64,000 nt of DNA. Source: a virus. Its lineage: Duplodnaviria; Caudoviricetes. Numbering within the stretch: position 1 is the first letter of the stretch; each line of letters opens with the position of its first letter. Made by a program: the position numbers and the translations under genes. The stretch lies in IMG/VR virus record IMGVR_UViG_3300001580_000006, positions 96,001-160,000 of that record. One strand, written 5' to 3'. Shown here piece by piece: positions 43,678 through 58,537 of the stretch. The notes below the pieces were generated by a model. It worked only from the letters and a program-made list of their open reading frames with translations, had not been told where the DNA came from and made no database searches.

Positions 43678-44280
43678 TTACCGAGTCGTAGTGGAACCAA
43701 TTGAGTTGCGAAACCATTCTTGGTGCTCCATTGCTGCTACGTATTCTATTGTTATAGTTGAATTTGGTCTAGCATATTTTGGTATACCTACTAGGGCTTT
43801 TGCAAACTTTGACTGCAGTAGACTATACCATTTCAAGTTTACTGGCCCATAGTTAGTATGCACTGTGTATATATTAGTTGTCCAAATAGTGCTAACTACA
43901 GGATCTCCGACTCTTATAGCTGACGACCATCTAGTTACTCTTTTTGGTACTCTAATTATAGTGCCTATTGGTTCTGCGTTTAGCACTACTTGACTAGCTG
44001 GTTGAAAGAACCAATCAATCTGCAACTTTGCCAGCTCGTTGGCCTTTATAAATACAGCGTCAAGCTGTGTGTATATTCTTATGCCCTGTACTGGATTGCC
44101 GACTATTTCTGCAAAGTCTCCAGCTCGTATGCAGTCATAGTTGCTTATGTTAGACAGTGTTTCGTTGCCGTCTTTGTTCCTAATTCGTCGCACTCTCCAG
44201 TACTTCGGTAGGCTCTGCAAGCTGTGTAACGTATGCATAATTTCTCGTATACCTGTCCATTGTGGGTTTAGCCATAGCAC
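43678..44280 (-). CDS. hypothetical protein (TNYGPV paralog family; start uncertain)
   Basis: WRVRRIRNK.G, I.AGDF, IRVGD, VHTNYGPV. Confidence 0.55.
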   Translation of the reverse strand: MLWLNPQWTGIREIMHTLHSLQSLPKYWRVRRIRNKDGNETLSNISNYDCIRAGDFAEIVGNPVQGIRIYTQLDAVFIKANELAKLQIDWFFQPASQVVLNAEPIGTIIRVPKRVTRWSSAIRVGDPVVSTIWTTNIYTVHTNYGPVNLKWYSLLQSKFAKALVGIPKYARPNSTITIEYVAAMEHQEWFRNSIGSTTTR

Positions 44281-44668
44281 TACTATCGTTTATACTAATA
44301 GGACCGTACTTAGAGTGCACCAACATTGTTCCAGTTTCTGCATACTCTTTCTCGTCAAGCTCTACATACGCAGGAATATTTAACACCTCTTTAATACTAT
44401 TCATGCGCCAGCCAAGTTTTTCTGAGTCGGCTATAACATACGAAAACTTTCCGGTTACCGGTCTTTCAGTAGCAGGCCGCAGGTACTTAAGTAAATCTTT
44501 CCGCCTAAAGCCATATATCCCGCGTCTTGTAAACACATCTATTTGTATACGTCCACCATAACGCTCTCGCGTTACGACAAAATCCCCTGGCTGTACGTAG
44601 TTTGACTTCCATACGTTGCGGCCCATCTTGTTTCGTAATCTTTTTACACGAAAAAATTCATTTGCCAT
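44180..44668 (-). CDS. hypothetical protein (TNYGPV paralog family)
   Basis: FRVKRLRNK.G, V.PGDF, VHSKYGPI. Confidence 0.55.
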   Translation of the reverse strand: MANEFFRVKRLRNKMGRNVWKSNYVQPGDFVVTRERYGGRIQIDVFTRRGIYGFRRKDLLKYLRPATERPVTGKFSYVIADSEKLGWRMNSIKEVLNIPAYVELDEKEYAETGTMLVHSKYGPISINDSSAMAKPTMDRYTRNYAYVTQLAEPTEVLESATN

Positions 44669-45435
44669 AACTGCATCCTTTTTAAAATATGATGTCAGGG
44701 CTCTTTTTATTTAAACTCAGCGCCCACGAATCGCAATTGATAAGTGAGGGAGATATAAAGGTTGGAGCCAATAACCACTGACATCAAGTACTATTACCCA
44801 ATGCTATCTCCTGCCGACCGCTTCCTTCATCTGTAAACATTTTTGAGTCTACAAATAGAATGGACAGTCCACTTGCTGTAGGTATTGGAACGAACATGCT
44901 TGTCATTACCATGTCTTCTCCGTCTACCTCTGGTTGAAGATATATGTCGGCGACCTTACCAGCATCCCTGATCTGTATAGACATATTGTTGTCGTTGTAT
45001 CGAGCGTAAACATCGGACACTTGCTCGCCCAAGGCCAAGAAGTGCAACAGTCTGCCAGGTATTAGATCAGACAGAATTATCTTGTGCAGTTTCGCGTCCC
45101 CACTGTATGTCACTTTCATCTTTTACCTTCCCAATTTTGTGAATTTGAGCTCGGCACTCGGGGCAACCGATTCTTGAATATAAATCGCAGGTGATTTGAT
45201 CTATCTCGTCTGACCAGTCACACTTGCTGCACTCTACTGAATAAATCATGGAAGTAGTTGTAGCTCCTCAATAGCTTCACTTACCTTATTCTTTGCAACA
45301 GATAGTCTGTGTAGATCGAGATAAAAGGTAGTAGTCTTTTCTATAGCAGTAAGTTCTTTGTACTGCTCTTGCAAAGACTCTAGCACTTTGGCCGTTTTAG
45401 TATGCTTCTTAGCTTGCATTTACCTATACCTAGTT

Positions 45436-45469
45436 AAAAAATAAGGGGATAGTATTTCTACTATCCCCT
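45436..45469 (-). terminator. intrinsic terminator downstream of the Ro60 gene
   Basis: AGGGGATAGTA/TACTATCCCCT hairpin followed by a T tract on the minus strand. Confidence 0.75.
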
Positions 45470-45504
45470 ACTGAACTCAGTTATTGGCGGCTGCAGCTCT
45501 TGTC

Positions 45505-46950
45505 CTATTGCCTACAATCTGAGCTTTCGTATGCTCGTATGTAATCCATTACATGCTCTGACCACCCGTCAATGTGCGTCCACTTGCCATACCCAATCCC
45601 GTTCTTTTCAATAGAGACGTTGATTAGATAGTTTTCGGTAGCCCAAGAGGTGTCAGCGTTGGTTGGATCTCCTTTAGAGCCCTTGGCATCACAATCCTGT
45701 TCGTCAGTGAACACTATAACTCTATCAGCGCTACCTTCCTCTCTTTTGACGTAGTCCATAGCCTGTTTCAGGAATATTCCGCCACCGCCTAGGCTCTGCT
45801 CTGCCTTCTTTACTGCATCTATTAGAGCAAAGCCATAACGCGGAGCAACTAAAGCAGTTTGATGCACCCTAGTGTGGTCGTTGCCGGCAGTACAGTAGAT
45901 CCGTGCATCCACACACCGTTCTCTAGCAATAACAGCTAAAGCAGCAGCAACATCTAGACGATTACGGTCGGATTTGGCTGATATATTGCCGCGCATAGAG
46001 CCGGAAACATCTATGATTAAAACTGTTTTGCCTGGAAGCTTGGAGTATCCATCCAAGTATTTCAACATTGCTTGCTCAATCTTGTTTTCCCACTGCGGGG
46101 CAAACTGAGCAGCTGATATGAACTGGAATGGTAGCACCATGCCGGGCTTCAGCCTATCTAAGGCTTCGAACACTAGCTTCTCGTTAACTCCGTTGTCTTT
46201 GAAGTTACGCAGATTGCGTAGTACAGCCAAAGCTCCCATCTTATTGTTGGATAAAAGACGCTCAAACTCTAGGCGCTTAGCTTCCTTGTCGTTGCCACAG
46301 GCTGATATGGCTACTTCCCAGGTGTCTGGGGTAGCTAAGGTGTTGGCGCGTAGCCTTCCCCAAAGAGTAGCCTGGTCCTCATCAATAGGACGAGGGTGCA
46401 CTAAGCATAGAACATCGCGTAGCTTTATTACCTTGTCATCGCCGCGGTATTTAGCCAACTGATACTCGTCGAAGCGGCGGAACGCACTAGCTAAACCAAC
46501 CTTGAACTGCCAAGGAATCGGCACCCTCTTGCCATATCTGTGATCAGCAGTACGCTTAGGCTTAGCTTGTCTATTTATACCCCAATATATGGCTAATATT
46601 TCTGAGAGCTCGTCTGCTCTTTTAATAATCTCCGGAAGCAGTTGCCCAACCAGCTTCTTATGCTCTGGGTGTCTTAGCATTAGGTTGGCTATAAGCAGCG
46701 GTGCATGACGGATTTTCATATCCAGTCTGGTCTCAATAGCCATATTGAATACGCTATGAGGATCTACTTGGCCTATTAGCTCAGCTATACGCTCGGCTAT
46801 AGACATACCACCCTCATAGAATGAATCTTCCCAAAGCATGCACGCCATTAGTGACCGCCTCAGTTTCTTTTCAGCTGAAATCATGGCGGCATTTGCGCCA
46901 CCAGCTGTATAAACTGGAGGTCTTTTGGCAGTTGTGTTTATTCTCGCCAT
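45505..46950 (-). CDS. Ro60/Rsr TROVE-vWA RNA-binding protein (start at MARINTT, RBS AAGGGAG)
   Basis: LRR...CMLWED.FYE.G, R.APL, RADE, FDEYQLAKY, LRDVL...HP.P, PDTWE, ALAVLRNLRN, vWA DVSGSM and TDEQ. Confidence 0.92.
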   Translation of the reverse strand: MARINTTAKRPPVYTAGGANAAMISAEKKLRRSLMACMLWEDSFYEGGMSIAERIAELIGQVDPHSVFNMAIETRLDMKIRHAPLLIANLMLRHPEHKKLVGQLLPEIIKRADELSEILAIYWGINRQAKPKRTADHRYGKRVPIPWQFKVGLASAFRRFDEYQLAKYRGDDKVIKLRDVLCLVHPRPIDEDQATLWGRLRANTLATPDTWEVAISACGNDKEAKRLEFERLLSNNKMGALAVLRNLRNFKDNGVNEKLVFEALDRLKPGMVLPFQFISAAQFAPQWENKIEQAMLKYLDGYSKLPGKTVLIIDVSGSMRGNISAKSDRNRLDVAAALAVIARERCVDARIYCTAGNDHTRVHQTALVAPRYGFALIDAVKKAEQSLGGGGIFLKQAMDYVKREEGSADRVIVFTDEQDCDAKGSKGDPTNADTSWATENYLINVSIEKNGIGYGKWTHIDGWSEHVMDYIRAYESSDCRQ

Positions 46951-46968
46951 AGTCTTACTCCCTTTTTG

Positions 46969-47468
46969 ACTAGGTAATTTGATTGGCCCCGCCGTACACG
47001 GCTTTACGTGCGACAACAAAAGGCTTAGTATACTATACCTATTGCTGGTTTTGATCAAACTAACCGCGGGTTATTGTTCGGCTTGCCAGATTCTCACTGG
47101 ACGCTCGTCCTTACGGACATTCAATATAGTGTTGCTGCCCCACTATTATCGGCTGTGGGTCACCATCATACAAAGTGCCATTTTGCGACTAAGCACCATG
47201 GCTGGTTGCGCATACAGTCTTTCAGCGCTACGTCATTTGGCGGACATACCAAGCCTAGCCGGTTTTCGGTGGACTGCAATCTTACCTTCCATGGTCTTTG
47301 GTCAACCTCTACCACGCGCAGCGACTTTCAGGTGCTAGGCATCTGTATGGAAGACTGCGTAGACAAACCGGCAAAATTTAACGCTACTCGGCATAGTCGA
47401 ATCGGGCAGTACTGCGGTTTCCCGCGTGCTCTGATTAAGGGCGAAGTAACCCAACTCTTCACCTGAGT
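46969..47468 (-). ncRNA. putative ~500-nt structured RNA starting with a Y-RNA-type 5' motif
   Basis: 5' CAGGUGAAGAGUUGGGUUACUUCG; no credible ORF on the transcribed strand; many local hairpins; abuts the Ro60 RBS. Confidence 0.55.
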
Positions 47469-47480
47469 AGCTTTTCTAAC

Positions 47481-47550
47481 TTGCCCGGAATAAGCGACTT
47501 GAGTATATTATCGTTTACAGTCGAAGTAACCCAAGCCTACACCAGGGCAA
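47481..47550 (-). ncRNA. minimal Y RNA (Ro60-binding helix, no tRNA-like domain)
   Basis: UUGCCCUGG-UGUAG-GCUUGGGU-UACUUCG...ACUCAAGU-CGCUUAUU-CCGGGCAA; the ends pair; lies between the promoter and the Ro60 gene. Confidence 0.75.
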
Positions 47551-47571
47551 TTTCTTTACTAGAATCAGCAT

Positions 47572-47600
47572 ATTGTAGCACAGAATCAATTAAAAGTCAA
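47572..47600 (-). promoter_or_regulatory. promoter of the Y-RNA/Ro60 unit
   Basis: TTGACT-17 nt-TACAAT with TG extension. Confidence 0.75.
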
Positions 47601-48448
47601 GTACTTTTTAACTCTGACCACAATAAATCTGATATCAGATCGTTTACATAATCTCTATCGTTATTATCAGGTAGCTGTGACTTGCTTGCAGCAGTGTTGA
47701 ACAGTTTCTTTTCGTGCTCAGCCATCTTTAATACTGACTTGAGGCTAAACTGTCCTTGCTTTATAGCTAACAACTCTTCTCTATCGATAGTGCGATAGTT
47801 TGTCATGTTCCCAGTGTCCAACAGCTCTCGTCCTAACCGATAGATGCGAATGAGGTGGGCTGCGTTCTTAGTGTCATACCCAAACTTATCAACTAAGGCT
47901 TTCCGCTTCTCACCCATGTATCCAAGGTATTTGTTGACTGCCTTAGTCTCTTTGTTTAGGTTGAAGTATGCAAAGGCACGACTATACCACTTCGGCTTTA
48001 CTAGATCAGGGTGTGATCTCATCATCTTGTCGAACTGCCCTTTTGCGTAGCCACCAAATGCGTCGCGCACTCTCGTTCGTGACAGAAATGCCTGCCTATT
48101 CTTTATGAGTTCAGACGATATGCACGACACAGTGGTTCTAAACTTTGCATCCAACCACAACCAGCCCAATACGTTAGGGTTGCAGCCTAGGAGAAGAGAT
48201 ACCGCCTTGCGTAATTCATAGCCTACACAGTCTACTAACACCCCACTCTCCATACGCATATAGTCAAAACCATCGTCTGACCTGTTGTAGCCGTCGAGGT
48301 TTAGATAGTAGTGACGGTCACGTATGTACACCTGGAAAATATCGTGATCATCTACTCCAACCTTATGCTCTGGAGGGATATATAAATTGTGGGCCTCTGA
48401 TCCGCGCAGGCCAGCGTATACTATCTTCCTTGTTTCTGCTTTAGGCAT
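47597..48448 (-). CDS. Pol-beta superfamily nucleotidyltransferase (RlaP/YcgL-like, RNA-repair associated)
   Basis: RGS.AH.L....DD.D, NPNVL..L, F.GYA..Q, GYDTK.A.H..R, L..IK.G. Confidence 0.85.
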   Translation of the reverse strand: MPKAETRKIVYAGLRGSEAHNLYIPPEHKVGVDDHDIFQVYIRDRHYYLNLDGYNRSDDGFDYMRMESGVLVDCVGYELRKAVSLLLGCNPNVLGWLWLDAKFRTTVSCISSELIKNRQAFLSRTRVRDAFGGYAKGQFDKMMRSHPDLVKPKWYSRAFAYFNLNKETKAVNKYLGYMGEKRKALVDKFGYDTKNAAHLIRIYRLGRELLDTGNMTNYRTIDREELLAIKQGQFSLKSVLKMAEHEKKLFNTAASKSQLPDNNDRDYVNDLISDLLWSELKST

Positions 48449-48460
48449 TGTCCTTATAAC

Positions 48461-48847
48461 CTAGAAGTCGGTATTTCTGATTATGGCTTTGATGCGACCG
48501 TTGCTAAACTCTACTGCTGGAGTTAGCTCCCACTCCTCGTCAGAGTTGTTAAGTTCAACCAGCAGCTCTTCCATAGTGGAAACGTTAATCAGCTGATAGC
48601 GAGCGCCGATTGACCGCACTCGCTCTATGGTAATGGCCTCTTCTGTCTCAATCGGAGTATCGGTAATAGTCACTACGTCGTTGTCGGCCAGGTCGGAGTA
48701 GAGGTCATCGCACTCCGTGCCGTTGATGGTAATAGTCTGATTCTCATCGACTATGTTAGCCATCCGAAAAAGGGTATCCACCGTTGCGTCATTTGGGTCC
48801 AAAGCTACTTTGCGCTCTGCCCCGTTGTGTACCATGGTGACAATCAT
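48461..48847 (-). CDS. protein with N-terminal ubiquitin-like domain
   Basis: V.....G....V.L....ATVDTL......ITING......L.D.DVVTI. Confidence 0.55.
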   Translation of the reverse strand: MIVTMVHNGAERKVALDPNDATVDTLFRMANIVDENQTITINGTECDDLYSDLADNDVVTITDTPIETEEAITIERVRSIGARYQLINVSTMEELLVELNNSDEEWELTPAVEFSNGRIKAIIRNTDF

Positions 48848-49183
48848 TGTATCTCCTTGGTTATTATTGCGTTGTCTGGTAATCTTTCAAGAAAGCGTGC
48901 TGGAACGACACCATTTTTCCATAGGTTGGTTGTAGCTAACTCGCTACCGTCATGGAACTTTATGGTGAATCGTTCGGCATCGTGGCCTTTCCACTTATCG
49001 GGAATATTTTCTTCATCTAGCTGAAAGCAGGTACGATCTGCAATGACAAATACTTTATTTCCAGCTTGTATACTATCTATTCTGTTTTGCCAATATAGGC
49101 AATCGTAACACAATGATTTAGTAAGCATTTCTGCAGCAGTGTCGTCAGAGTAGTCTCTTGTAGCCTGCCGTCTACCACAAGTA

Positions 49184-49831
49184 TTACACCTTATCTCCGC
49201 TTGAATCATCGCTGTCCCTCAATAAGTTCTTGATGTCCGCATCGGGCGTGGAGCGATATCTAGTAGTAGCGCAGGCCATGAAGCATAAAGCTTCACGGGT
49301 ACCTTCCCCTGTTCCAGCGTAGTTGGCAATGTTGCCTTTACTAATACCGATTGACGCACCTGCCGCAAATGCATCTTGATTAGCAGCCAGAAAGACAAAC
49401 ACCCATTTGTACACATCTGTCTGGTGAGAGATCATCTCATTAATTTGCTCGCGATGGAAGCTAGAACTTGCGTTCTCTTCTCCATCTGTAAGTATAGCAA
49501 TAATAACCTTCTCAGGTCTTTCGTCCTCTGGTAGGTTATTCAGTTGGTCGCCTATACGATTTATTGTCTGTCCGATAGCGTCGTATAGTGCTGTGGTTCC
49601 GCCAGGTCTATAGTTCTCTTCGGTAAGCTCTGGGGCGTCGGCGACGGGTTTGCGGTCTGTTAGAACAGATACCTCATGGTCAAATAGCACAATGGTAATA
49701 TTGGCATCTCCAGGACATTTCTTTTGCTCTTTTAGAAATGTATTGAATCCGCCAATAGCATCATTGGCAACGTGGCCCATGGACCCAGACTTATCAACTA
49801 TGATCCCAATTTCGGTAAGGTCCTTTTTCAT
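49184..49831 (-). CDS. vWA domain protein
   Basis: DKSGSM, G.TALYDAIG, ILTDG.ENAS. Confidence 0.88.
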   Translation of the reverse strand: MKKDLTEIGIIVDKSGSMGHVANDAIGGFNTFLKEQKKCPGDANITIVLFDHEVSVLTDRKPVADAPELTEENYRPGGTTALYDAIGQTINRIGDQLNNLPEDERPEKVIIAILTDGEENASSSFHREQINEMISHQTDVYKWVFVFLAANQDAFAAGASIGISKGNIANYAGTGEGTREALCFMACATTRYRSTPDADIKNLLRDSDDSSGDKV

Positions 49832-50040
49832 TAGCCCTCCACTTTAATAAGCATTCCTTCTCCCACAGGAATACTTAAATCAGTTGTAATGGTATCGTTT
49901 ATCTTTACAGTGTACATGTCTTTTGTCCACTGCTCAGTCCTTTTTAACAAATTCACCATGTCCAACACAGTACAGGGCTTCACCGAAGTAGTCCCAAATG
50001 TGTGAACTCTGCCACCGTTCAGCTGAACTTTGACTTCCAT
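49831..50040 (-). CDS. small ubiquitin-like/ThiS-like protein ending in Gly
   Basis: 69 aa: V.V.LNG, TV.D, VKIN, V.EG..I.VEG. Confidence 0.5.
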   Translation of the reverse strand: MEVKVQLNGGRVHTFGTTSVKPCTVLDMVNLLKRTEQWTKDMYTVKINDTITTDLSIPVGEGMLIKVEG

Positions 50041-50048
50041 ATATTCTC

Positions 50049-50570
50049 CTAATCAGATAGTTGCATATTCAATCTTCTTGCCATACTTTTGCTAAAGGTT
50101 CCAACGGCTGGACGTCGGCCATTCTTTGCTATGCTTTTGGCGTAGGCTATCCCTTCTGGAAAATCATTGTTGACAAATAGCACTACGTCCCCTTCTTTAA
50201 GCGTATAGTTAGGTCTACGCTTTATACCATTAATCATGGTCGCGTTGGTACTGTACCGCGTCTTACCAAAGTAGTACTTGTATAGCTCACCAGCAGTGGT
50301 GCTATTCTTAATAGCCACCTGCTCTACTGGCCCTGGTATTCTACCAGCAGTAATGATTATGTTGCTAGCCAGCGTAAACTTTATGTCGAAAGACTCGGAA
50401 GGGGGGAATTGCGAAGAAGGGAGGGAAGACGTACGGCTTGGTTTCTTCGTAGTATTTTCACACTCTTCATTTTTAATCTCATTGGCCAGCTCGTTGTCTT
50501 CTACGCTACATTTATCACAAAGAGACTTCCCCTCATCGGCAAAACGTTTGCATAATTTACATTGTGGCAT
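50049..50570 (-). CDS. zinc finger plus internal ubiquitin-like domain protein
   Basis: CKLC..CDKC; IITAGRIPGPVEQVAI...ING......LKEGDVVLF resembles the 39368 Ubl. Confidence 0.55.
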   Translation of the reverse strand: MPQCKLCKRFADEGKSLCDKCSVEDNELANEIKNEECENTTKKPSRTSSLPSSQFPPSESFDIKFTLASNIIITAGRIPGPVEQVAIKNSTTAGELYKYYFGKTRYSTNATMINGIKRRPNYTLKEGDVVLFVNNDFPEGIAYAKSIAKNGRRPAVGTFSKSMARRLNMQLSD

Positions 50571-51396
50571 AATACCTAATCTTTATAATTACAATCCAAA
50601 CATACTTGATTTTGACTGACGTCTGGGTCAATCGCTAAGAAGTTTTTGCTACCACAGCTAGGACAGCTTAATCCAAGCCACTGCAGGAACTTAGTCCATG
50701 GACTGAAGTTCTTTCTTTCTGTCTTTTCTTTCTCGCTCACGCTTTTTCCTTGGGCGCAGTGCAGCTTCTAGCTCTCCTTTCCACACCACGTCCCATTCAT
50801 GGTTCTTTATTCTTATGACCCTATACTTTTGCTCTGATTTAATACAGGCGGCAATAACTTTTCTTCCTACTGTGTCAAAGCCTTTTTCGGTAAAGAAGAA
50901 CCGACAGTTGCGATTCACCGCTCTTGTCGGCCCCATTATATCATCTATCCAGGCACTAACAACCTCGTCGGTTGTAATGCCGCATAGACCATGTTTATAT
51001 GCTGAGAACTTTAATTTAGACTTATGGCCAACTGTCATATGGATGCCAAGTTCTTTGGCTAGTCTAAGTGCATTGTCAATGCTATATTCGTTGATAACTT
51101 CGATACGATAGTACATTAATTATACAGTTCTTCTGCAGCTTCTGCTGCTCTATCCATTATTGGCTCATACTGGTCATTATCATACTGAAATGGGTCTGGG
51201 CTAGACGTGCGTACTTTGCAAGCTGGGTGTATACCAGCTTCGTCAAATAGATAGTTTATTATGCTGCCTGCACTTACTCCAACTACCATAGCTTCTAAAG
51301 TGGAAGCTGATAGATTTGGTAGGTGTAGATCTCTTATGCTTATTTCGTCGCGTTCAGCCCAAGATTTACTTGTACTCATCTTAACTGCTCTCCTAC

Positions 51397-51472
51397 TGGT
51401 TGCGGGGGCAGGAATCGAACCTGCGACCGTATGGGTTATGAGCCCAACAAGCTACCTCTGCTACACCCCGCG
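51397..51472 (-). tRNA. tRNA-fMet (CAT)
   Basis: C1:A72 mismatch, GGG-CTCATAA-CCC anticodon arm, TTCGA T-loop, encoded CCA. Confidence 0.9.
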
Positions 51473-51547
51473 ATGAAATCGTTTTGGTTTTTGCTAACTA
51501 ATATGTTATAATATAAGTAGTTATAGTAACTTTAAAGGAGTATACTT

Positions 51548-52111
51548 ATGAAAAGTCTTAATGGGCCAAAGGCCGGTGGCGCTATCCGCGCTGTTCAGCA
51601 GCGTAGAGACTCGATACAGAAGTACTACGAAAACCCTAAATTATGTCTTAATTGTGGTAAAGTTATAGAAGTTGGTGACCGCAAGGTTAGTGATGTTCGT
51701 ACGTGTTCATACTGTAGTCATTCTTGCGCCGCTAAAGCCAGCAATCATGCTAGAGGTTGTTCTCCCAAGGTGACTTGCACTAAATGTGGTTGTAGTCTTA
51801 GAGTTAAGTCCTCCAAAGCAAGAGGAACATGTGGCAACTGCTACAAGACTTTACTATTTGGTAGACGACGTAAGGACCAAGTACTACGTACTACTATAGG
51901 TGCACATGCTAGAACCTTATATATGAACAGTGATTTACCAAAAACCTGTTTTTCTTGTGGCTATGGCAAACATATTGAAGTTTGTCATATACGTAGTGTA
52001 TCCTCTTTTCCGCCATCGGCTTTAATAGAGGAGATTAACGCGCTAGATAATCTCAAAGCTCTATGTCCAAATCATCATTGGGAGTATGACCAGGATATAG
52101 AGCACGACTAA
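51548..52111 (+). CDS. HNH endonuclease (free-standing, antisense to its neighbours)
   Basis: YCSHSCAA; C..CGY.KH.EVCHI......N...NL..LCPNHHWE; own TTGGTT-17-TATAAT promoter (51484..51512) and AAGGAG RBS. Confidence 0.85.
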   Translation: MKSLNGPKAGGAIRAVQQRRDSIQKYYENPKLCLNCGKVIEVGDRKVSDVRTCSYCSHSCAAKASNHARGCSPKVTCTKCGCSLRVKSSKARGTCGNCYKTLLFGRRRKDQVLRTTIGAHARTLYMNSDLPKTCFSCGYGKHIEVCHIRSVSSFPPSALIEEINALDNLKALCPNHHWEYDQDIEHD

Positions 52112-52399
52112 CCCCTATTACTCCACCCCGCTATATAATGTTGACGTGATATACTTCCTGTATATCGTATTTTACTATTGCTGGTACTTTATCTCTACAG
52201 CCACTTTGTGTCATATCGTTGTCTGGAACTAGATCCCAAAACGTGTCGTACAGCTCTAGCCACTTATCTGTAGATAGCTTTTTATTATATGTAGCTTTGT
52301 GTGTGGCTACGGCTTCTTCAAACACTCTTTTATTTCTACAAGCAGCGTAGTGAATCTCGTCGCTATCAATCCACACTACAAGCCAGGCTTTTGGTTTGC

Positions 52400-53236
52400 T
52401 CATAGTTTGCTAACAGCTTCTGCTATCTTTGGCAGCCACTTTTCGTATTTGGCTTTCCGCGTAGCATCATTGTCTGAACAATGGTCATAGTTATACTGCA
52501 TATCAGCTAGCTTTACTTCTAAGACTAGCTTAATCCCAGATGCGATAAGCCTCTCCATATACATGTCGTAGGTCTCTGTTTTAGATCGAGAAAGCTCTTG
52601 TACACAAGTAGCAAGACGTTTTGGTATACCCTTAGTTATTAGGTCTTCAATAGTAATACCGCTATCCTCTATGACATCGTGTAGTATGGCAACTATCTGA
52701 TGATTCATGTCGACGAATTTATTAGCTATTGACATAGGGTGTATGATATATGGATCGCCGGCATAGTTTTGCCCAGCGTGTGCCTTTAAGGCTATAGCTA
52801 CAGCTTTATCATACATTTGGGTATGATAGCGCGCATCGTTTTTCCAGATGTGCAACATCTTGTTGATCTTTTCGAGCTGCACCTGTGCTGTTGCGGCGTC
52901 TACTGGATCTGAGGGGCGAAGGCCCTCCAAATCTTCCTTAAGAAAACGTAGTGCTTTAATAGCTTCTGGATCTGGGTTGTACGGTGGTTGATCAACAATT
53001 ACGTAGCGTGCGGCAAGCTCCTTTGCCAGGTGTCTCATATAAGCAGCTTCAGCACCAGAAGCATGACACTCTTTGATAATGCTATCAACTACGGTATTGT
53101 ATTTATCATTTGACACGCTATCTATAAGACAATCGTCACCCATGAACCGTACGTCGGCTTTGCAGTTAATACAACGATAATTCTCGTCCTTGTCGTACTT
53201 AAGTGTGAACTGCCCACACGCTTTACAGTAGTACAT
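52400..53236 (-). CDS. HD-domain hydrolase (RelA/SpoT-hydrolase-like) with N-terminal zinc finger
   Basis: AHAGQ...G.PY..HP, AILHDVIED, VKLAD...N. Confidence 0.8.
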   Translation of the reverse strand: MYYCKACGQFTLKYDKDENYRCINCKADVRFMGDDCLIDSVSNDKYNTVVDSIIKECHASGAEAAYMRHLAKELAARYVIVDQPPYNPDPEAIKALRFLKEDLEGLRPSDPVDAATAQVQLEKINKMLHIWKNDARYHTQMYDKAVAIALKAHAGQNYAGDPYIIHPMSIANKFVDMNHQIVAILHDVIEDSGITIEDLITKGIPKRLATCVQELSRSKTETYDMYMERLIASGIKLVLEVKLADMQYNYDHCSDNDATRKAKYEKWLPKIAEAVSKL

Positions 53237-53382
53237 CTTTCTCCTATCTAGTTTGTAATAGCTGACATATGTTTCATTGTCAATTTAAGTGCGAAGGTCT
53301 TCCCACGAGTTTACGTGCGTCTACGCCTCACTTTCCTTACACACTATTACGGCCGACGTAACCTGAGTCTTTAACTAGAACT

Positions 53383-53475
53383 TGGTGGACTGCACAGGGT
53401 TCTAACCTGTGTCTCTAGGACTAATATCCAACGTCTTGGAACGCCTTCAAGAGTTTTCCATTAAACTAGCAGCCC
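53383..53475 (-). ncRNA. tRNA-like RNA (93 nt) with expanded anticodon arm
   Basis: GGGCTGC/GCAGTCC acceptor plus ACCA, D arm GTTT-AATGGA-AAAC, T arm ACAGG-TTAGAAC-CCTGT; extra hairpin in the anticodon arm. Confidence 0.7.
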
Positions 53476-53480
53476 ATATT

Positions 53481-53556
53481 TGGTCGGAGACCCCGGGCTC
53501 GAACCGGGGGCTTCATGCTCCCAAAGCATGCACGCTACCAACTGCGTTAGTCTCCG
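53481..53556 (-). tRNA. tRNA-Pro (TGG)
   Basis: Canonical 76-nt cloverleaf, CATGC-TTTGGGA-GCATG, encoded CCA. Confidence 0.93.
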
Positions 53557-53806
53557 ATTTGTTGTGGTAGTGCTTCTATGTAACCCCAGTGGTCTACTAT
53601 TTTGCTCACTTCAAGCCAGCGGTTTTTGTATGGTCCCACACTGTGTGGGAAGTGCACCAGAACCTTTGAGCCGCTAGGAGAAACCTCACGGATAACAATT
53701 TCTAAGAAGTCACTACTGCAGTAGATATCTTGTACAAGAATACGTTTACCTACCAGTAGCTTTATTATTTCCAGTGAAAGTTTTTGTTCCATTGTTCTCC
53801 GTATAA

Positions 53807-54091
53807 CCGCTCTCGCCGACAGCCTGAGGTAGATGGATGTCCAAAGGCAACCTACCTTTTTGCCAGGATTTTATGGCTATCTTGATTCTTACTGTCGTAA
53901 GTCATTAAAGGCCTTTTCTATTTTTCATCGCAAGGCAACTCGATTCAAACTTGGTAACTTAATGCTTGAGTCTTCAAATTAATTGCATTAGGGATACAGT
54001 CAAATGACCGTATAAATATGCATTAGTTATTTCAAATCGTTTCTAACCCTCACGAGGGCCTCTGTGTTCCCTTTTTACGTCGGTAAAGCGG
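53807..54091 (-). ncRNA. putative ~285-nt structured RNA downstream of a coiled-coil gene
   Basis: Non-coding gap whose ends pair (CCGCUUUACCGAC / GUCGGCGAGAGCGG) and which has internal hairpins. Confidence 0.55.
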
Positions 54092-54097
54092 AACTTG

Positions 54098-54619
54098 TTA
54101 TTTCGGGGCTTCTATTAGATCCATAGTGGCATTAATAACTTCCAGGCGAGACTCGATGTTGTCATATAGGTCTTGCCAGAACCCCATGCGCTCATTCTTC
54201 TCCTGCTCGTTGTAGAACTTAACTACGCCCGGGCTGGCCTGGCTTGCCACCTTTAGGGACTGCGTCTTAGCCCTTTCCTCAGTCAAGGATTTCCATAGGG
54301 ATATTGCTAAGTGCGCGCCTTTGCGGCGGATGTTGAGCAGTGTGTTGAGAGAGTACTTCTTTCCGCCCATCTCAACAGTCAGCATGACATTGGTGTAATC
54401 AATGTCACGCTTCAGCTTCAGATACCGCTGAACCAGGTCTTCGCCGGACTGCATCATCGACTTAAGCTCCTTAGTCTGTTCGCTCTCGTCTTTGAACGCC
54501 GGCTTCATGTAGGCTGGGATGGCAGCATACTCGGTGACCTGTGCGCCCAAGCTAGCCAAGCGCTTCTCGATGATCTTCAGCTCTTTAAGGCCTTCGATTA
54601 TTTTCATTGTGTCCTCCAC
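54098..54619 (-). CDS. helical coiled-coil protein (DIP1984-like)
   Basis: MKIIEGL.ELK...K.L, LK..I..TN, I...L...NA; GGAGG RBS. Confidence 0.55.
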   Translation of the reverse strand: MEDTMKIIEGLKELKIIEKRLASLGAQVTEYAAIPAYMKPAFKDESEQTKELKSMMQSGEDLVQRYLKLKRDIDYTNVMLTVEMGGKKYSLNTLLNIRRKGAHLAISLWKSLTEERAKTQSLKVASQASPGVVKFYNEQEKNERMGFWQDLYDNIESRLEVINATMDLIEAPK

Positions 54620-55101
54620 ATTTATTTATAGTTATGGATTAAACTCCATCATGCTGAGTGTGGTGCTTGGCAATCTTCGTTACTGGACGAAGCTTGGCTA
54701 ACTCCTCTTCCTTCTTAGCCATCTTCTCTCTTTCCTCGGCCGCGTACAAGCGGCTAAGATGCTTGACGTATATCTTGCGGTGCCGGTGCACGTCTTCTAG
54801 CATTCCTTCTGCCTTCTTCTCCAAGATAAGATTCTTTAGCCGGTCATTGCACCTAGAGACGGCTTCGCCATATCTTTCGGTGGCACTGTACTTCATGTAC
54901 GGATTGTTCCTAGCCCGCTCTATTGCAACAGTGCGTCCTCTCTTACGAGAGTAGTTATCTAAGGCATTGTGTAGCACAATACCAATAGATATTTCGTCAT
55001 TATCGTACCTTGCGGCCACAGTAATGCCGCCGCTATTTTTGCAGCAGCCGCCTCCGCATGGGGGTTGATGTCGTATGAACAATAGTTCCATGGCTGACTC
55101 C

Positions 55102-56262
55102 TTATAGTCCATGTTTTAATTGATATTCAGGGCTTATAACTTTTAGTTGTACTCTGCCAAGTTTTGGATGCTTGCGTTCTACTGTAGGTTTCCACACTAG
55201 TCCCTCTCTTAGTTCACTAGCTAGTAATGCACTTGGTCCATTAGAGAACTCAACCATCTTGTCTTTGGCTGGCAGCTCTCCTTTATAAACTACTGGTACA
55301 AACGGTAGTCCTAACTCTTCTGCTATCTTCGTAGCCATATCGTGATTGACGTACACACCTGCAATCATTATGTCGAAGACCCTAAAGTCGTTTTGTACTA
55401 ATTTATAAACGTTGCGAACAGCAGCTCCTACCGATGGTCCTATAACCTCTGCCTGCACTGCGATATCTCCACTATCGAAGCCGAACGAGTTGCTTTCAAA
55501 GAACTTACGCAGTCGTTTCTCTACGTCCCAGCGTTTAGAAACCTCTACCCAGTGATTCTTGCCATCGAAGTTTTTGCCTACGCCAAGCTTACGCAGCAAC
55601 CAGAGGACAGCTCTATTCCATAGTTTGCCTTCTCCAGAACGGTACTTTAGTACAGACCTAGAGCATACACCATAGACCCCATCTTTCAAATAGAACGTGG
55701 AGGAGCAGCCCTCAAGCTTTTCTGTGGCAACATATTCGCCAGGGAATTGGTCGAATACATCTGGATAATTCTGCCACCTTTCAGAATCAGTCTGAGGGAT
55801 GTGCTCTGGAAAGTGATATTTCTTCCTCGCCCAGCTAACACGCTTTAGTAAGAATCTTTGTAGCTTGCCATATGATTCTCTCTTATCTAGCTCCTCAAGA
55901 GGTTCGTACTTCGCTATATCATAGAACTTACTAGCGTCATCACCTTCCTTCATACCAGCTGGGCAAGGCTGCAACAAACCCTGGGATAGAACTCCACCCA
56001 TCTTCATAGTACGTAGACGATACTCGGCTTTGTCCTTAGCACGAGCTTTTAAAAAGCCGAACTCTGGTCTATCCATTTTTAGTATGGAATCAGGAGGCAT
56101 AAAGGTAACAAGGTCGCCTACTTTATAGTTACCTTTTTGATCTATTACTTGGTAGCCAAGTACATAATATAGCTCTATGCGGTCTTTGCCTTCAATTGGC
56201 TCAACCTTTAGGATTTTGGTAATAGGGCAAGTAAACGTGCTCATTGGTGGTTCTTTTTCCAC
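55102..56262 (-). CDS. RNA ligase (Rnl2/DRB0094-like)
   Basis: I..V.PI...DRIE, SQGL, IP.TD.ER.QN, TEKLEG.S, CSR, Q.E..G, FD, VP, REG.V, LK.IS..Y. Confidence 0.88.
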   Translation of the reverse strand: MEKEPPMSTFTCPITKILKVEPIEGKDRIELYYVLGYQVIDQKGNYKVGDLVTFMPPDSILKMDRPEFGFLKARAKDKAEYRLRTMKMGGVLSQGLLQPCPAGMKEGDDASKFYDIAKYEPLEELDKRESYGKLQRFLLKRVSWARKKYHFPEHIPQTDSERWQNYPDVFDQFPGEYVATEKLEGCSSTFYLKDGVYGVCSRSVLKYRSGEGKLWNRAVLWLLRKLGVGKNFDGKNHWVEVSKRWDVEKRLRKFFESNSFGFDSGDIAVQAEVIGPSVGAAVRNVYKLVQNDFRVFDIMIAGVYVNHDMATKIAEELGLPFVPVVYKGELPAKDKMVEFSNGPSALLASELREGLVWKPTVERKHPKLGRVQLKVISPEYQLKHGL

Positions 56263-58255: not shown

Positions 58256-58537
58256 GTACTTTCTTGTGTGTGCCCGAGTTTCATTTCCTGCCTTTTGTTT
58301 TGATCAAACATATCTTCCTGATGAATGACCCACAGCCCAACATCACCTAGCTTCATGTCAAATACAAGGGCTATAGCTTCTTCGTTGACGATAATAAGGT
58401 CTCCATTAAATGATTTCACCAGTGCATTAATTGAGTATAGCACAGGTCTTACGCCGATTCTAATAGCCAAGCCATCGGCTGTCTTGACAAAGAATGCTTT
58501 GTCACCAATTCTGAATAAAGCCTTATGAGGCAAGCTG

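What the first reader, a model, noticed from the sequence alone, without database searches (positions are those of the whole stretch)
45436..47600. Self-contained Ro60 transcription unit: promoter, mini Y RNA, ~500-nt RNA, Ro60 gene, terminator
Seen: a TTGACT-17-TACAAT promoter is followed by a 70-nt hairpin RNA with the Y motif, a second Y-type 5' motif opening a ~500-nt non-coding stretch, the TROVE-vWA gene and a strong terminator. With the two chimeras, this phage has at least four RNAs sharing one motif but attached to very different modules: none, a large RNA, or a tRNA. Known: Ro60/Y RNPs act in RNA quality control and occur in RNA-repair operons, and some phages encode them. Inference: Ro60 acts here as a hub that loads interchangeable RNA effector modules.
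Basis: partly seen in the sequence, partly recalled or inferred. Interest (0 to 1): 0.82.

Follow-up and report, generated by a model that had tools for sequence, protein, structure and literature searches.

The report
Phage Ro60 operon, two mini Y RNAs
A 223-kb uncultured phage carries an ordinary Ro60 RNA-binding protein gene behind its own promoter and two small partner "Y RNAs". The supposed 500-base RNA is really a second 89-base Y RNA followed by 432 unexplained non-coding bases.

Summary
All features lie on the minus strand.

- **Promoter (47600..47572):** near-consensus sigma-70 type, one of seven such sites in the genome (1.3 expected).
- **Y1 (47550..47481):** a 70-nt Y RNA.
- **Y2 (47471..47383):** a second Y RNA.
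- **Non-coding leader (47382..46951):** 432 nt.
- **Ro60 (46950..45505):** TROVE plus vWA, 481 aa.
- **Terminator (45469..45434):** strong.

Both Y RNAs carry the two-helix handle found about 100 times on the Ro60 strand in 119 related loci. Fourteen of its 16 pairs covary. A covariance model built only from other loci hits this window at Y1 (E 5e-15) and Y2 (E 1e-5) and nowhere else.

The second motif therefore closes on itself after 89 nt and does not open a ~500-nt RNA. The remaining 432 nt have no credible ORF, no homologue, no Rfam match, no further handle and no fold signal (z -1.05). They stay unexplained.

A layout of promoter, several Y RNAs, then Ro60 is the rule in related phages and is published for M. 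smegmatis and Thermus phage phiLo. The "hub with modules" idea is the established Y RNA model. This is a new member of a known kind. Other notes of this scan on the same genome cover the same RNAs.

The parts
47572..47604 (-). Sigma-70-type promoter. The -35 TTGACT is at 47600..47595, the extended -10 TGcTACAAT at 47580..47572, and an A-rich shared box lies upstream. The predicted transcription start is about 47566-47564. The -35 overlaps the stop codon of the upstream RlaP gene.
   Evidence: scores it 10 of 12 with TG. Searches find the 15-mer box exactly three times in the genome. One search finds 39-nt and 36-nt similarity to the other two copies. One search finds seven near-consensus sites in the genome against 1.3 in shuffles. 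The other six are each followed by an RBS and a start codon.
47481..47550 (-). Y1, a 70-nt mini Y RNA. Its handle is helix 1 (6 bp), a bulged U, a GG/CC pair, an internal loop of 4 nt (UGUA) on the 5' side and 7 nt (GCUUAUU) on the 3' side, then helix 2 (8 bp). A 26-nt distal loop begins UUACUUCG.
   Evidence: One search gives fold z -3.0. One search finds 16 of 16 handle pairs. One search gives CM R1 58.7 bits, E 5e-15. One search shows a distal loop nearly identical to 70-nt members in L047 and L095.
47383..47471 (-). Y2, an 89-nt Y RNA. The handle architecture is the same, with a 43-nt distal module that includes a GAAA-capped hairpin. It departs from two positions invariant in the 32 aligned mini members: the bulge is A instead of U, and the 3' loop is GACUAUG, ending in G instead of U.
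   Evidence: One search gives an MFE of -34.5 kcal/mol, z -3.35, and a structure equal to the family consensus. One search finds 16 of 16 pairs. Searches give CM 27.3 bits (E 1e-5 over the window) and 33.8 bits with filters off. One search lists the invariant columns T7 and T62.
46951..47382 (-). 432-nt non-coding leader between Y2 and the Ro60 start. Its function is unknown. The Shine-Dalgarno GGGAG lies at 46962..46958.
   Evidence: No credible ORF on the minus strand in table 11, with TAG=Q, or in table 4 (where the only open frame needs 6 TGA read-throughs). The + strand ORFs of 119 and 130 aa have codon scores of -0.14 and -0.07, while real genes score 0.07-0.41. They have no family or homologue. 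Fold z is -1.05 and local z is never below -2.4. There is no Rfam match, no further handle, and no nhmmer, blastn or tblastx relatives.
45505..46950 (-). Ro60/Rsr orthologue of 481 aa, with a TROVE domain and a vWA domain carrying the MIDAS motif DVSGSM.
   Evidence: One search gives Pfam TROVE at 2.5e-12. One search aligns residues 37-473 to phiLo Ro60 (9KOP/9L5Y) at E 1.6e-15. Searches find hundreds of phage and metagenome homologues at 38-54% identity, aligned from residue 1.
45434..45469 (-). Intrinsic terminator with an 11-bp stem, a GAAA loop and a UAUUUUUU tail, 36 nt after the Ro60 stop codon.
   Evidence: one search gives a hairpin-containing fold of -24.5 kcal/mol, z -3.85, with 0 of 200 shuffles as good.
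47597..48448 (-). Context: the upstream gene, a nucleotidyltransferase of the RlaP family (RNA repair pathway, DNA polymerase beta type).
   Evidence: One search gives PF10127 at 3.2e-18.

Best explanation
This is a phage Ro60/Y RNA operon. A host-type sigma-70 promoter starts a transcript of about 2.1 kb. The transcript carries a ~15-nt AU-rich leader, Y1 (70 nt), a 10-nt AU-rich linker, Y2 (89 nt), a 432-nt untranslated stretch, the Ro60 ORF and an intrinsic terminator.

Shown here:
- The parts and their order.
- The handle structure of Y1 and Y2, and its covariation across about 100 relatives.
- Its strict co-orientation with Ro60 genes.
- Ro60 identity.

Inferred:
- The two Y RNAs are cut out of the precursor at the AU-rich linkers, as for M. 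smegmatis YrlA and YrlB upstream of rsr.
- They are stabilised by the Ro60 made from the same transcript, which binds the conserved helix-bulge-internal-loop handle.
- Their distal loops recruit partners. Because no RNase PH-type PNPase core was found in this 94%-complete record, the most likely partner is the host PNPase, as shown in vitro for Thermus phage phiLo.
- With RlaP next door, RtcB elsewhere in the genome and two tRNA-shaped Y RNAs under the same promoter box, the particle probably serves RNA surveillance or repair, or control of host RNA decay, during infection.

The 432-nt stretch is most likely just the 5' untranslated region of the Ro60 mRNA, with unknown or no function.
For: - **Promoter class:**
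- **Y1 and Y2:** both fold into the family consensus and have 16 of 16 handle pairs.
- **Covariation:** on 32 independent mini Y RNAs, 14 of 16 pairs change on both sides. The covariation score is 0.81, against 0.21 in shuffles and at most 0.21 when partners are slid.
- **Covariance model:** a model built without the window finds only Y1 and Y2 in 64 kb. It makes 116 hits in 39 viral loci, all on the Ro60 strand, usually ending within about 100 nt (often 8-40 nt) of the Ro60 start.
- **Link to YrlA:** the ~135-nt members of the same handle family are hit by Rfam YrlA RF02553 at E 2.5e-9 to 1e-2. The GGYGWAG part matches the published GNCGAAN0-1G Ro60 motif, and UUAC matches the published YUAY (PMC4201824).
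- **Closest relatives:** L001, L003 and L004 show Y arrays running up to the Ro60 RBS.
- **Precedent:** M. smegmatis YrlA and YrlB lie upstream of rsr and come from one precursor. phiLo Yrl1 and Yrl2 lie upstream of Ro60 and bind host PNPase.
- **Genome context:** Ro60 identity, RtcB present, no RNase PH domain.
Against: - There are no expression data. Processing, Ro60 binding and the PNPase partner are all inferred.
- Y2 breaks two positions that are invariant in 32 aligned family members and scores half as high as Y1. It may bind weakly or be decaying.
- In most related loci (27 of 39 in the CM hit list) the last detected Y RNA lies within about 100 nt of the Ro60 start. A 432-nt gap is unusual and unexplained.
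- The covariation set was chosen by requiring at least 15 of 16 pairs, so the percentage paired is partly by construction. The compensatory changes, the unselected 3'-loop conservation and the independent CM hits are not.
- The Rfam YrlA model does not hit Y1 or Y2.
Confidence: 0.75

Rival explanations
1. Cis-acting operator. Y1 and Y2 are not released. They stay in the Ro60 mRNA leader, where Ro60 binding feeds back on its own mRNA through stability or translation.
For: The Y elements and Ro60 share one promoter, with no terminator between them. In relatives the last Y ends 8-40 nt from the start codon, next to the RBS. In the window a 5-bp stem (UAGUC/GACUA) brackets the Shine-Dalgarno sequence (read).
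Against: Here the nearest Y is 432 nt from the RBS, too far for direct occlusion. The same handle occurs downstream of Ro60 in some loci (L018, L021) and in tRNA-shaped RNAs 10 kb away in this genome. M. smegmatis YrlA and YrlB are processed to discrete Rsr-bound RNAs (PMC4201824). The two roles do not exclude each other.
Confidence: 0.12
2. The second motif is the 5' strand of a giant (~500-nt) Y RNA, closed by a 3' strand near the Ro60 RBS, or the 432 nt are a separate large structured RNA that works with Ro60.
For: 432 nt without a gene is long for this tightly packed phage. GC is 48% against 44.8% for the genome. There are GNRA-capped hairpins and three GUCGC words (read). A weak complement (ACU-AGG/CCU-AGU) lies at 46971..46966.
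Against: - Y2 closes locally with 16 of 16 pairs and matches the CM.
- The distal candidate has no helix 2 partner (by inspection).
- The whole 525 nt folds at z -1.86 and the 432 nt at z -1.05, with local z never below -2.4.
- There is no Rfam match even with lax filters.
- No similarity was found in 119 Ro60 loci, the phage collection or the genome itself.
- Long gaps in relatives (L030, L039) turn out to hold divergent Y RNAs, which the window's gap does not.
Confidence: 0.1
3. The 432 nt are decayed remains of a former Y RNA array. The tRNA-like Y RNAs were lost here after the tRNA-shaped chimeras elsewhere took over their role.
For: Relatives carry two to about ten Y RNAs in this position (L004). 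Y2 itself is degenerate at invariant positions. GUCGC, the junction of helix 2 and the 3' loop, occurs three times in 432 nt against about 0.4 expected (my count).
Against: The CM with filters off finds nothing above 3 bits there. No UUAC-UUC signature and no T-arm or tRNA signal is present. This cannot be told apart from random sequence.
Confidence: 0.1
4. The stretch encodes a protein on the opposite strand (ORFs 46979..47338 and 47074..47466, 119 and 130 aa).
For: Two long stop-free frames lie on the + strand.
Against: Their codon-usage scores are negative, outside the range of 72 real genes. There are no Pfam or PHROG hits, no tblastn hit in 50,697 phages or 119 loci, and no homologue among 5.8 billion proteins for ORF119. 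ORF130 would run antisense through the whole of Y2. Nearly all neighbouring genes are on the minus strand.
Confidence: 0.03

Closest known systems
M. smegmatis rsr locus with YrlA and YrlB, and S. Typhimurium rsr-yrlBA-rtcBA (Chen et al. 2013/2014, PMC4201824)
   Same: - The Y RNAs are on the Ro60 strand within 2 kb. In M. smegmatis both lie upstream and are processed from one precursor.
- There are at least two Y RNAs per genome, one of them a simple hairpin type.
- The 5' motif GGYGWAG corresponds to GNCGAAN0-1G, followed by YUAY.
- RtcB is in the same genome.
   Different: - Neither RNA in this unit has the tRNA-like T, D or acceptor domain, and Rfam RF02553 does not hit them.
- The tRNA-like partners of this phage are whole tRNA cloverleaves encoded 10 kb away.
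- RtcB is about 37 kb away, not in the operon.
- A 432-nt leader is present.
Thermus phage phiLo Ro60 with Yrl1 and Yrl2 (Hu et al. 2025, PMC12135203; PDB 9KOP, 9L5Y)
   Same: - A phage Ro60 gene has two small Y-like RNAs directly upstream.
- The protein aligns over nearly its full length (E 1.6e-15).
- Neither phage is known to encode PNPase: the phiLo paper reports none, and no RNase PH domain was found in this record.
   Different: - Low sequence identity: phmmer scores only 59.9 bits over the full-length alignment.
- The phiLo Yrls were defined by a CGAA motif in a bulge. Here the loop reads UGUA or UGAA.
- Binding and PNPase attenuation were shown in vitro for phiLo. Nothing has been tested here.
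Y RNA arrays upstream of Ro60 in uncultured phages
   Same: The handle, the strand and the order (upstream gene, Y RNAs, Ro60) are the same. The mix of mini (60-100 nt) and ~135-nt members is the same in the family overall.
   Different: Relatives usually include at least one YrlA-type member and end the array 8-40 nt before the start codon. The window has only two mini members and a long leader.

Membership tests
Ro60/Rsr (TROVE + vWA ring protein) | TROVE domain | tested here: met
   Pfam PF05731 at E 2.5e-12, 47 bits against a cut-off of 23. The match is partial, covering residues 205-295.
Ro60/Rsr (TROVE + vWA ring protein) | C-terminal vWA domain with a MIDAS DxSxS motif, and full-length collinearity with a solved Ro60 | tested here: met
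   Residues 37-473 align to phiLo Ro60 (9KOP/9L5Y) at E 1.6e-15. DVSGSM aligns with DVSGSM.
Ro60/Rsr (TROVE + vWA ring protein) | Binds Y RNA and misfolded RNA | not testable with these tools
   Needs RIP or EMSA.
Bacterial/phage Y RNA (YrlA/YrlB lineage) | Encoded within 2 kb of Ro60 on the same strand | tested here: met
   Y1 and Y2 lie 433-600 nt upstream of the Ro60 start on the same strand.
Bacterial/phage Y RNA (YrlA/YrlB lineage) | 5' and 3' ends pair into a stem that carries the Ro60 motif (GNCGAAN0-1G type) at a bulge or internal loop | tested here: met
   Handle with 16 of 16 pairs in both RNAs. Covariation in 14 of 16 pairs across 32 relatives. CM E-values of 5e-15 and 1e-5. The motif reads GGUGUAG in Y1 and GGUGAAG in Y2. 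Relatives read GGYGWAG, including exact GGCGAAG.
Bacterial/phage Y RNA (YrlA/YrlB lineage) | Bound and stabilised by Ro60 | not testable with these tools
   Co-occurrence only: 116 of 116 CM hits lie on the Ro60 strand in 39 viral loci.
YrlA proper (Rfam RF02553) | tRNA-like domain with T arm, closed acceptor-like stem and D arm | tested here: not met
   No RF02553 or tRNA hit at E up to 10 on 46900-47620 or 44000-56000. The distal parts are only 26 and 43 nt. RF02553 does hit the ~135-nt relatives. Y1 and Y2 are therefore hairpin-type (YrlB-like) Y RNAs, not YrlA.
Sigma-70 promoter / intrinsic terminator | -35 and -10 hexamers at 17-nt spacing; GC-rich hairpin plus U run | tested here: met
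   These are consensus matches only. The transcript ends have not been mapped.

The most novel reading that the evidence does not exclude
The 432-nt ORF-free stretch co-transcribed between the Y RNAs and Ro60 is a new large non-coding RNA of the Ro60 system. It could be, for example, a decoy or substrate-like RNA, or a scaffold loaded by Ro60. Alternatively it could be a long regulatory leader that couples Ro60 synthesis to Y RNA processing.
Probability: 0.1. Interest if true: 0.6.

Novelty: new member of a known kind. Interest (0 to 1): 0.33.

Why it matters
- The report gives a clean, fully mapped example of a phage Ro60 operon: promoter, two hairpin-type Y RNAs, Ro60 and terminator.
- It defines a precise, covariation-backed handle for this Y RNA lineage: helix 1, a bulged U, a GG/CC pair, a 4-nt/7-nt internal loop, helix 2, then UUAC.
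- That definition could improve annotation, because Rfam YrlA misses the hairpin-type members and scores even the ~135-nt members below its threshold.
- It removes a false lead, the "giant Y RNA".
- The biology itself (phage Ro60 with several modular Y RNAs, probably using host PNPase, with RlaP and RtcB in the genome) follows published work and is not surprising to a specialist.
- The open item is the unexplained 432-nt leader.

Tried and rejected
1. **Long-range closure of Y2 near the RBS (46990..46965).** Rejected. There is no helix 2 partner, and local closure is perfect.
2. **My first pairing of Y1 (CGACU/AGUCG).** Rejected once the family consensus showed that GUC belongs to helix 2.
3. 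**RNAs on the + strand.** Considered because CGAAG is the reverse complement of CUUCG. Rejected for three reasons: the tRNA-shaped copies fix the strand, the published motif maps to GGYGWAG on the minus strand, and 99 of 110 motif hits lie on the Ro60 strand.
4. **Rfam** at gathering and at E up to 10 gave nothing in the unit.
5. **Search for relatives of the 432 nt.** nhmmer, blastn and tblastx against 119 loci, the genome and the phage collection found nothing. An exact 17-mer scan of IMG/VR gave six chance hits with no extension. A 26-mer of Y1 gave none.
6. **Small conserved ORF, as in soil-bacterial Ro60 loci (L109 type).** It is absent here.
7. **Other genetic codes (TAG=Q, table 4).** No credible ORF appears.
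8. **Promoters of L001 and L003.** TTGACA is visible just before the first Y RNA, but the scan did not pass them, so I do not use them as evidence.
9. **Closer relatives of this phage's Ro60.** None above 54% identity in IMG/VR or JGI metagenomes, so the leader could not be tested by covariation.
Full report
**Setting.** The window is bases 96001-160000 of a 223-kb IMG/VR phage record, 94% complete by CheckV. Nearly all genes here are on the minus strand. All coordinates below are window coordinates, and the RNAs are read on the minus strand.

**The observation.**
- The promoter TTGACT-17-TACAAT lies at 47600..47572, with TG before the -10.
- It is part of a longer box. The 15-mer GTACTTGACTTTTAA occurs exactly three times in the genome, at window 2787, 47604 and 58259, all on the minus strand, and the similarity extends over 36-39 nt.
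- A wider pattern, TTGAC[TA]-N16-18-TAnAAT, finds seven sites in the genome against 1.3 in shuffles. The other six are each followed within about 25-40 nt by an RBS and a start codon.
- The copy at 2787 drives a DnaB-like helicase. The copy at 58259 drives a small ORF followed by the two tRNA-shaped Y RNAs.
- Ro60 is 46950..45505, 481 aa. The Shine-Dalgarno GGGAG lies 7 nt before the ATG.
- Ro60 has a Pfam TROVE hit at 2.5e-12 and aligns over residues 37-473 to the solved Thermus phage phiLo Ro60, including the MIDAS DVSGSM.
- The terminator at 45469..45434 has an 11-bp stem, a GAAA loop and a U run, with fold z -3.85.
- The upstream gene is an RlaP-family nucleotidyltransferase. Its stop codon overlaps the -35, and no terminator lies between it and the promoter.

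**The Y motif is real and belongs to a large family.**
- GGGTTACTTCG occurs three times exactly in the window, against 0.48 expected even when one mismatch is allowed.
- A wider regular expression finds exactly four copies in the whole genome: 47544, 47464, 57577 and 57935.
- I fetched 119 loci around Ro60 homologues, 39 viral and 80 metagenomic, all at 54% identity or less. In them the motif YGGYGWAG-N5-7-GGUUACUUCG appears about 100 times, 99 of 110 on the Ro60 strand.
- The GGYGWAG part, which is exactly GGCGAAG in several loci, is the published GNCGAAN0-1G Ro60 motif. UUAC is the published YUAY (PMC4201824).

**The handle structure.**
- Reading a canonical member (L109) gave the architecture: helix 1 (6 bp), a bulged U, a GG/CC pair, an internal loop of 4 nt on the 5' side and 7 nt (GYUUGUU) on the 3' side, helix 2 (8 bp), then UUAC and a distal module.
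- A scan for that architecture found 94 elements with at least 15 of 16 pairs. Sizes are bimodal at 61-97 nt and 124-145 nt.
- I aligned 32 independent mini members, with the window left out. The two helices are 96.5% paired, and 14 of 16 pairs change on both sides. The covariation score is 0.81, against 0.21 in shuffles and at most 0.21 with slid partners.
- The percentage paired is partly by construction, because I selected for pairing. Three things were not selected: the compensatory variety, the conserved 3' loop, and the following test.
- A covariance model built from those 32 hits the 64-kb window at exactly two places. Y1 at 47550..47481 scores 58.7 bits, E 5e-15. Y2 scores 27.3 bits, E 1e-5, or 33.8 bits at 47470..47384 with filters off.
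- In 39 viral loci the model makes 116 hits, all on the Ro60 strand.
- Rfam YrlA (RF02553) hits the ~135-nt members of the same family at E 2.5e-9 to 1e-2, below its gathering score. This ties the handle to the published YrlA lineage. It does not hit Y1 or Y2, which lack T, D and acceptor-like arms.

**What the second motif opens.** Y2 closes on itself.
- Helix 1 is GCUACUC[A]GG with CC-GAGUAGC, and helix 2 is GAGUUGGG with CCCGAUUC. That is 16 of 16 pairs.
- The MFE structure equals the family consensus, with z -3.35.
- Y2 is therefore an 89-nt RNA at 47471..47383, 10 nt after Y1. It is not the 5' end of a 500-nt RNA.
- I tested the alternative closure near the RBS (46990..46965) by hand. It offers a 6-bp helix 1 but no helix 2.
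- Y2 is atypical. Its bulge is A and its 3' loop ends in G, whereas both positions are invariant (U) in the 32-member alignment.

**The remaining 432 nt (47382..46951).**
- The minus strand is full of stops. The longest ORFs there are 49 and 44 aa. No credible ORF opens under TAG=Q or table 4.
- The two + strand ORFs, of 119 and 130 aa, have negative codon-usage scores. The 72 long genes of this phage score between 0.07 and 0.41.
- Those ORFs have no Pfam or PHROG family and no tblastn hit in the phage collection, the 119 loci or the genome. ORF119 has no homologue in the 5.8-billion-protein set.
- As RNA the stretch folds no better than shuffles (z -1.05), and local windows never go below -2.4.
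- It has no Rfam match even with lax filters and no further handle.
- It has no relatives by nhmmer, blastn or tblastx. A 17-mer scan of IMG/VR gave only chance hits.
- I therefore call it a non-coding leader of unknown function.
- It is unusual. In most related viral loci (27 of 39 in the hit list) the last detected Y RNA ends within about 100 nt of the Ro60 start, often 8-40 nt. Two apparent long gaps, in L030 and L039, turn out to hold divergent Y RNAs.

**Comparison with what is known.**
- The closest Ro60 relatives repeat the design. L001 has a YrlA-type plus a mini Y and then the RBS. L003 has three Y RNAs. L004 has about ten.
- M. smegmatis YrlA and YrlB lie upstream of rsr and come from one precursor. 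[quoted passage not shown]
- Thermus phage phiLo has Yrl1 and Yrl2 upstream of its Ro60. Both bind Ro60 and the host PNPase and attenuate it in vitro (PMC12135203).
- This genome also encodes RtcB but no RNase PH-type PNPase core. A host partner is therefore the likely effector. That is inference.

**Mechanism proposed.** One sigma-70 transcript of about 2.1 kb is made. The Y RNAs are excised at the AU-rich flanks (15-nt leader, 10-nt linker, and GUUAAAUUUU after Y2). Ro60 from the same mRNA binds and protects them. The distal loops recruit partners. Y1 carries a degenerate copy of the anticodon-arm-like hairpin common in the family. Y2 carries a 43-nt module with a GAAA hairpin. Only the anatomy, the family membership and the protein identity are shown. 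Processing, binding and the partner are inferred.

**Verdict.** This is a new member of a known kind, with one unexplained feature, the 432-nt leader. Other first-stage notes of this scan on the same genome describe the same RNAs: a tandem 70/89-nt reading that agrees with mine, and a "giant Y RNA" reading that my tests contradict.

Noticed in passing
window 47398..47387 and 46954..46943 (-): A 12-nt direct repeat, GACUAUG(C/G)CGAG, flanks the 432-nt leader. One copy is the odd 3' loop and helix of Y2, and the other spans the Ro60 start codon. About 0.6 such repeats are expected by chance in this region. It may therefore be nothing, or it may be a trace of how the stretch was inserted.
   Followed up: partly
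window 2787, 47604, 58259 (-): The same 15-nt promoter box occurs exactly three times in the 223-kb genome. It sits in front of a DnaB-like helicase, in front of the Ro60/Y unit, and in front of the small ORF followed by the two tRNA-shaped Y RNAs. Ro60 and all four handle RNAs are therefore probably co-regulated with an early or middle gene class.
   Followed up: partly
G000:C1:180172-181113 (-), outside the window: The phage encodes an RtcB RNA ligase of 382 aa about 37 kb from Ro60. No RNase PH (PNPase core) domain was found in the genome.
   Followed up: partly
related loci, e.g. L002:1215-1344, L053:962-1097, L097:1688-1989, L111:2753-2891: In 46 of 80 unique family members, the hairpin right after UUAC (the 'V' arm of the YrlA papers) has a 4-6-bp stem and a 7-nt loop. 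In 27 of these the loop has the full anticodon-loop signature Y-U-NNN-R-A, with many different triplets. The literature I read says YrlA lacks an anticodon loop (bioRxiv 312249).
   Followed up: partly
L001:2752-2978 and L003:2604-2979: In the closest Ro60 relatives the handle's GG/CC pair is replaced by GC/GC (UGCCGUAG paired with ...GC-CCCGC). This is a further compensatory change that my regular expression missed but the CM found.
   Followed up: no
L004:1486-2984: About ten Y RNAs lie in a row upstream of one phage Ro60 gene, in a 107-kb viral contig.
   Followed up: no
L032:1353-1739: A permuted tmRNA (Rfam 130 bits) sits immediately next to the Y RNA array of another phage Ro60 locus.
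   Followed up: no
window 49184..49831 (-): A stand-alone vWA-domain protein of 215 aa (phrog_7371) lies three genes upstream of Ro60, beyond RlaP and two small ORFs.
   Followed up: no
L109:2341-2730 and homologous places in L105, L113, L120, L095, L044, L106, L091: In soil-metagenome Ro60 loci a conserved small ORF of about 129 aa, with no Pfam family, sits between a YrlA and the next Y RNAs.
   Followed up: partly
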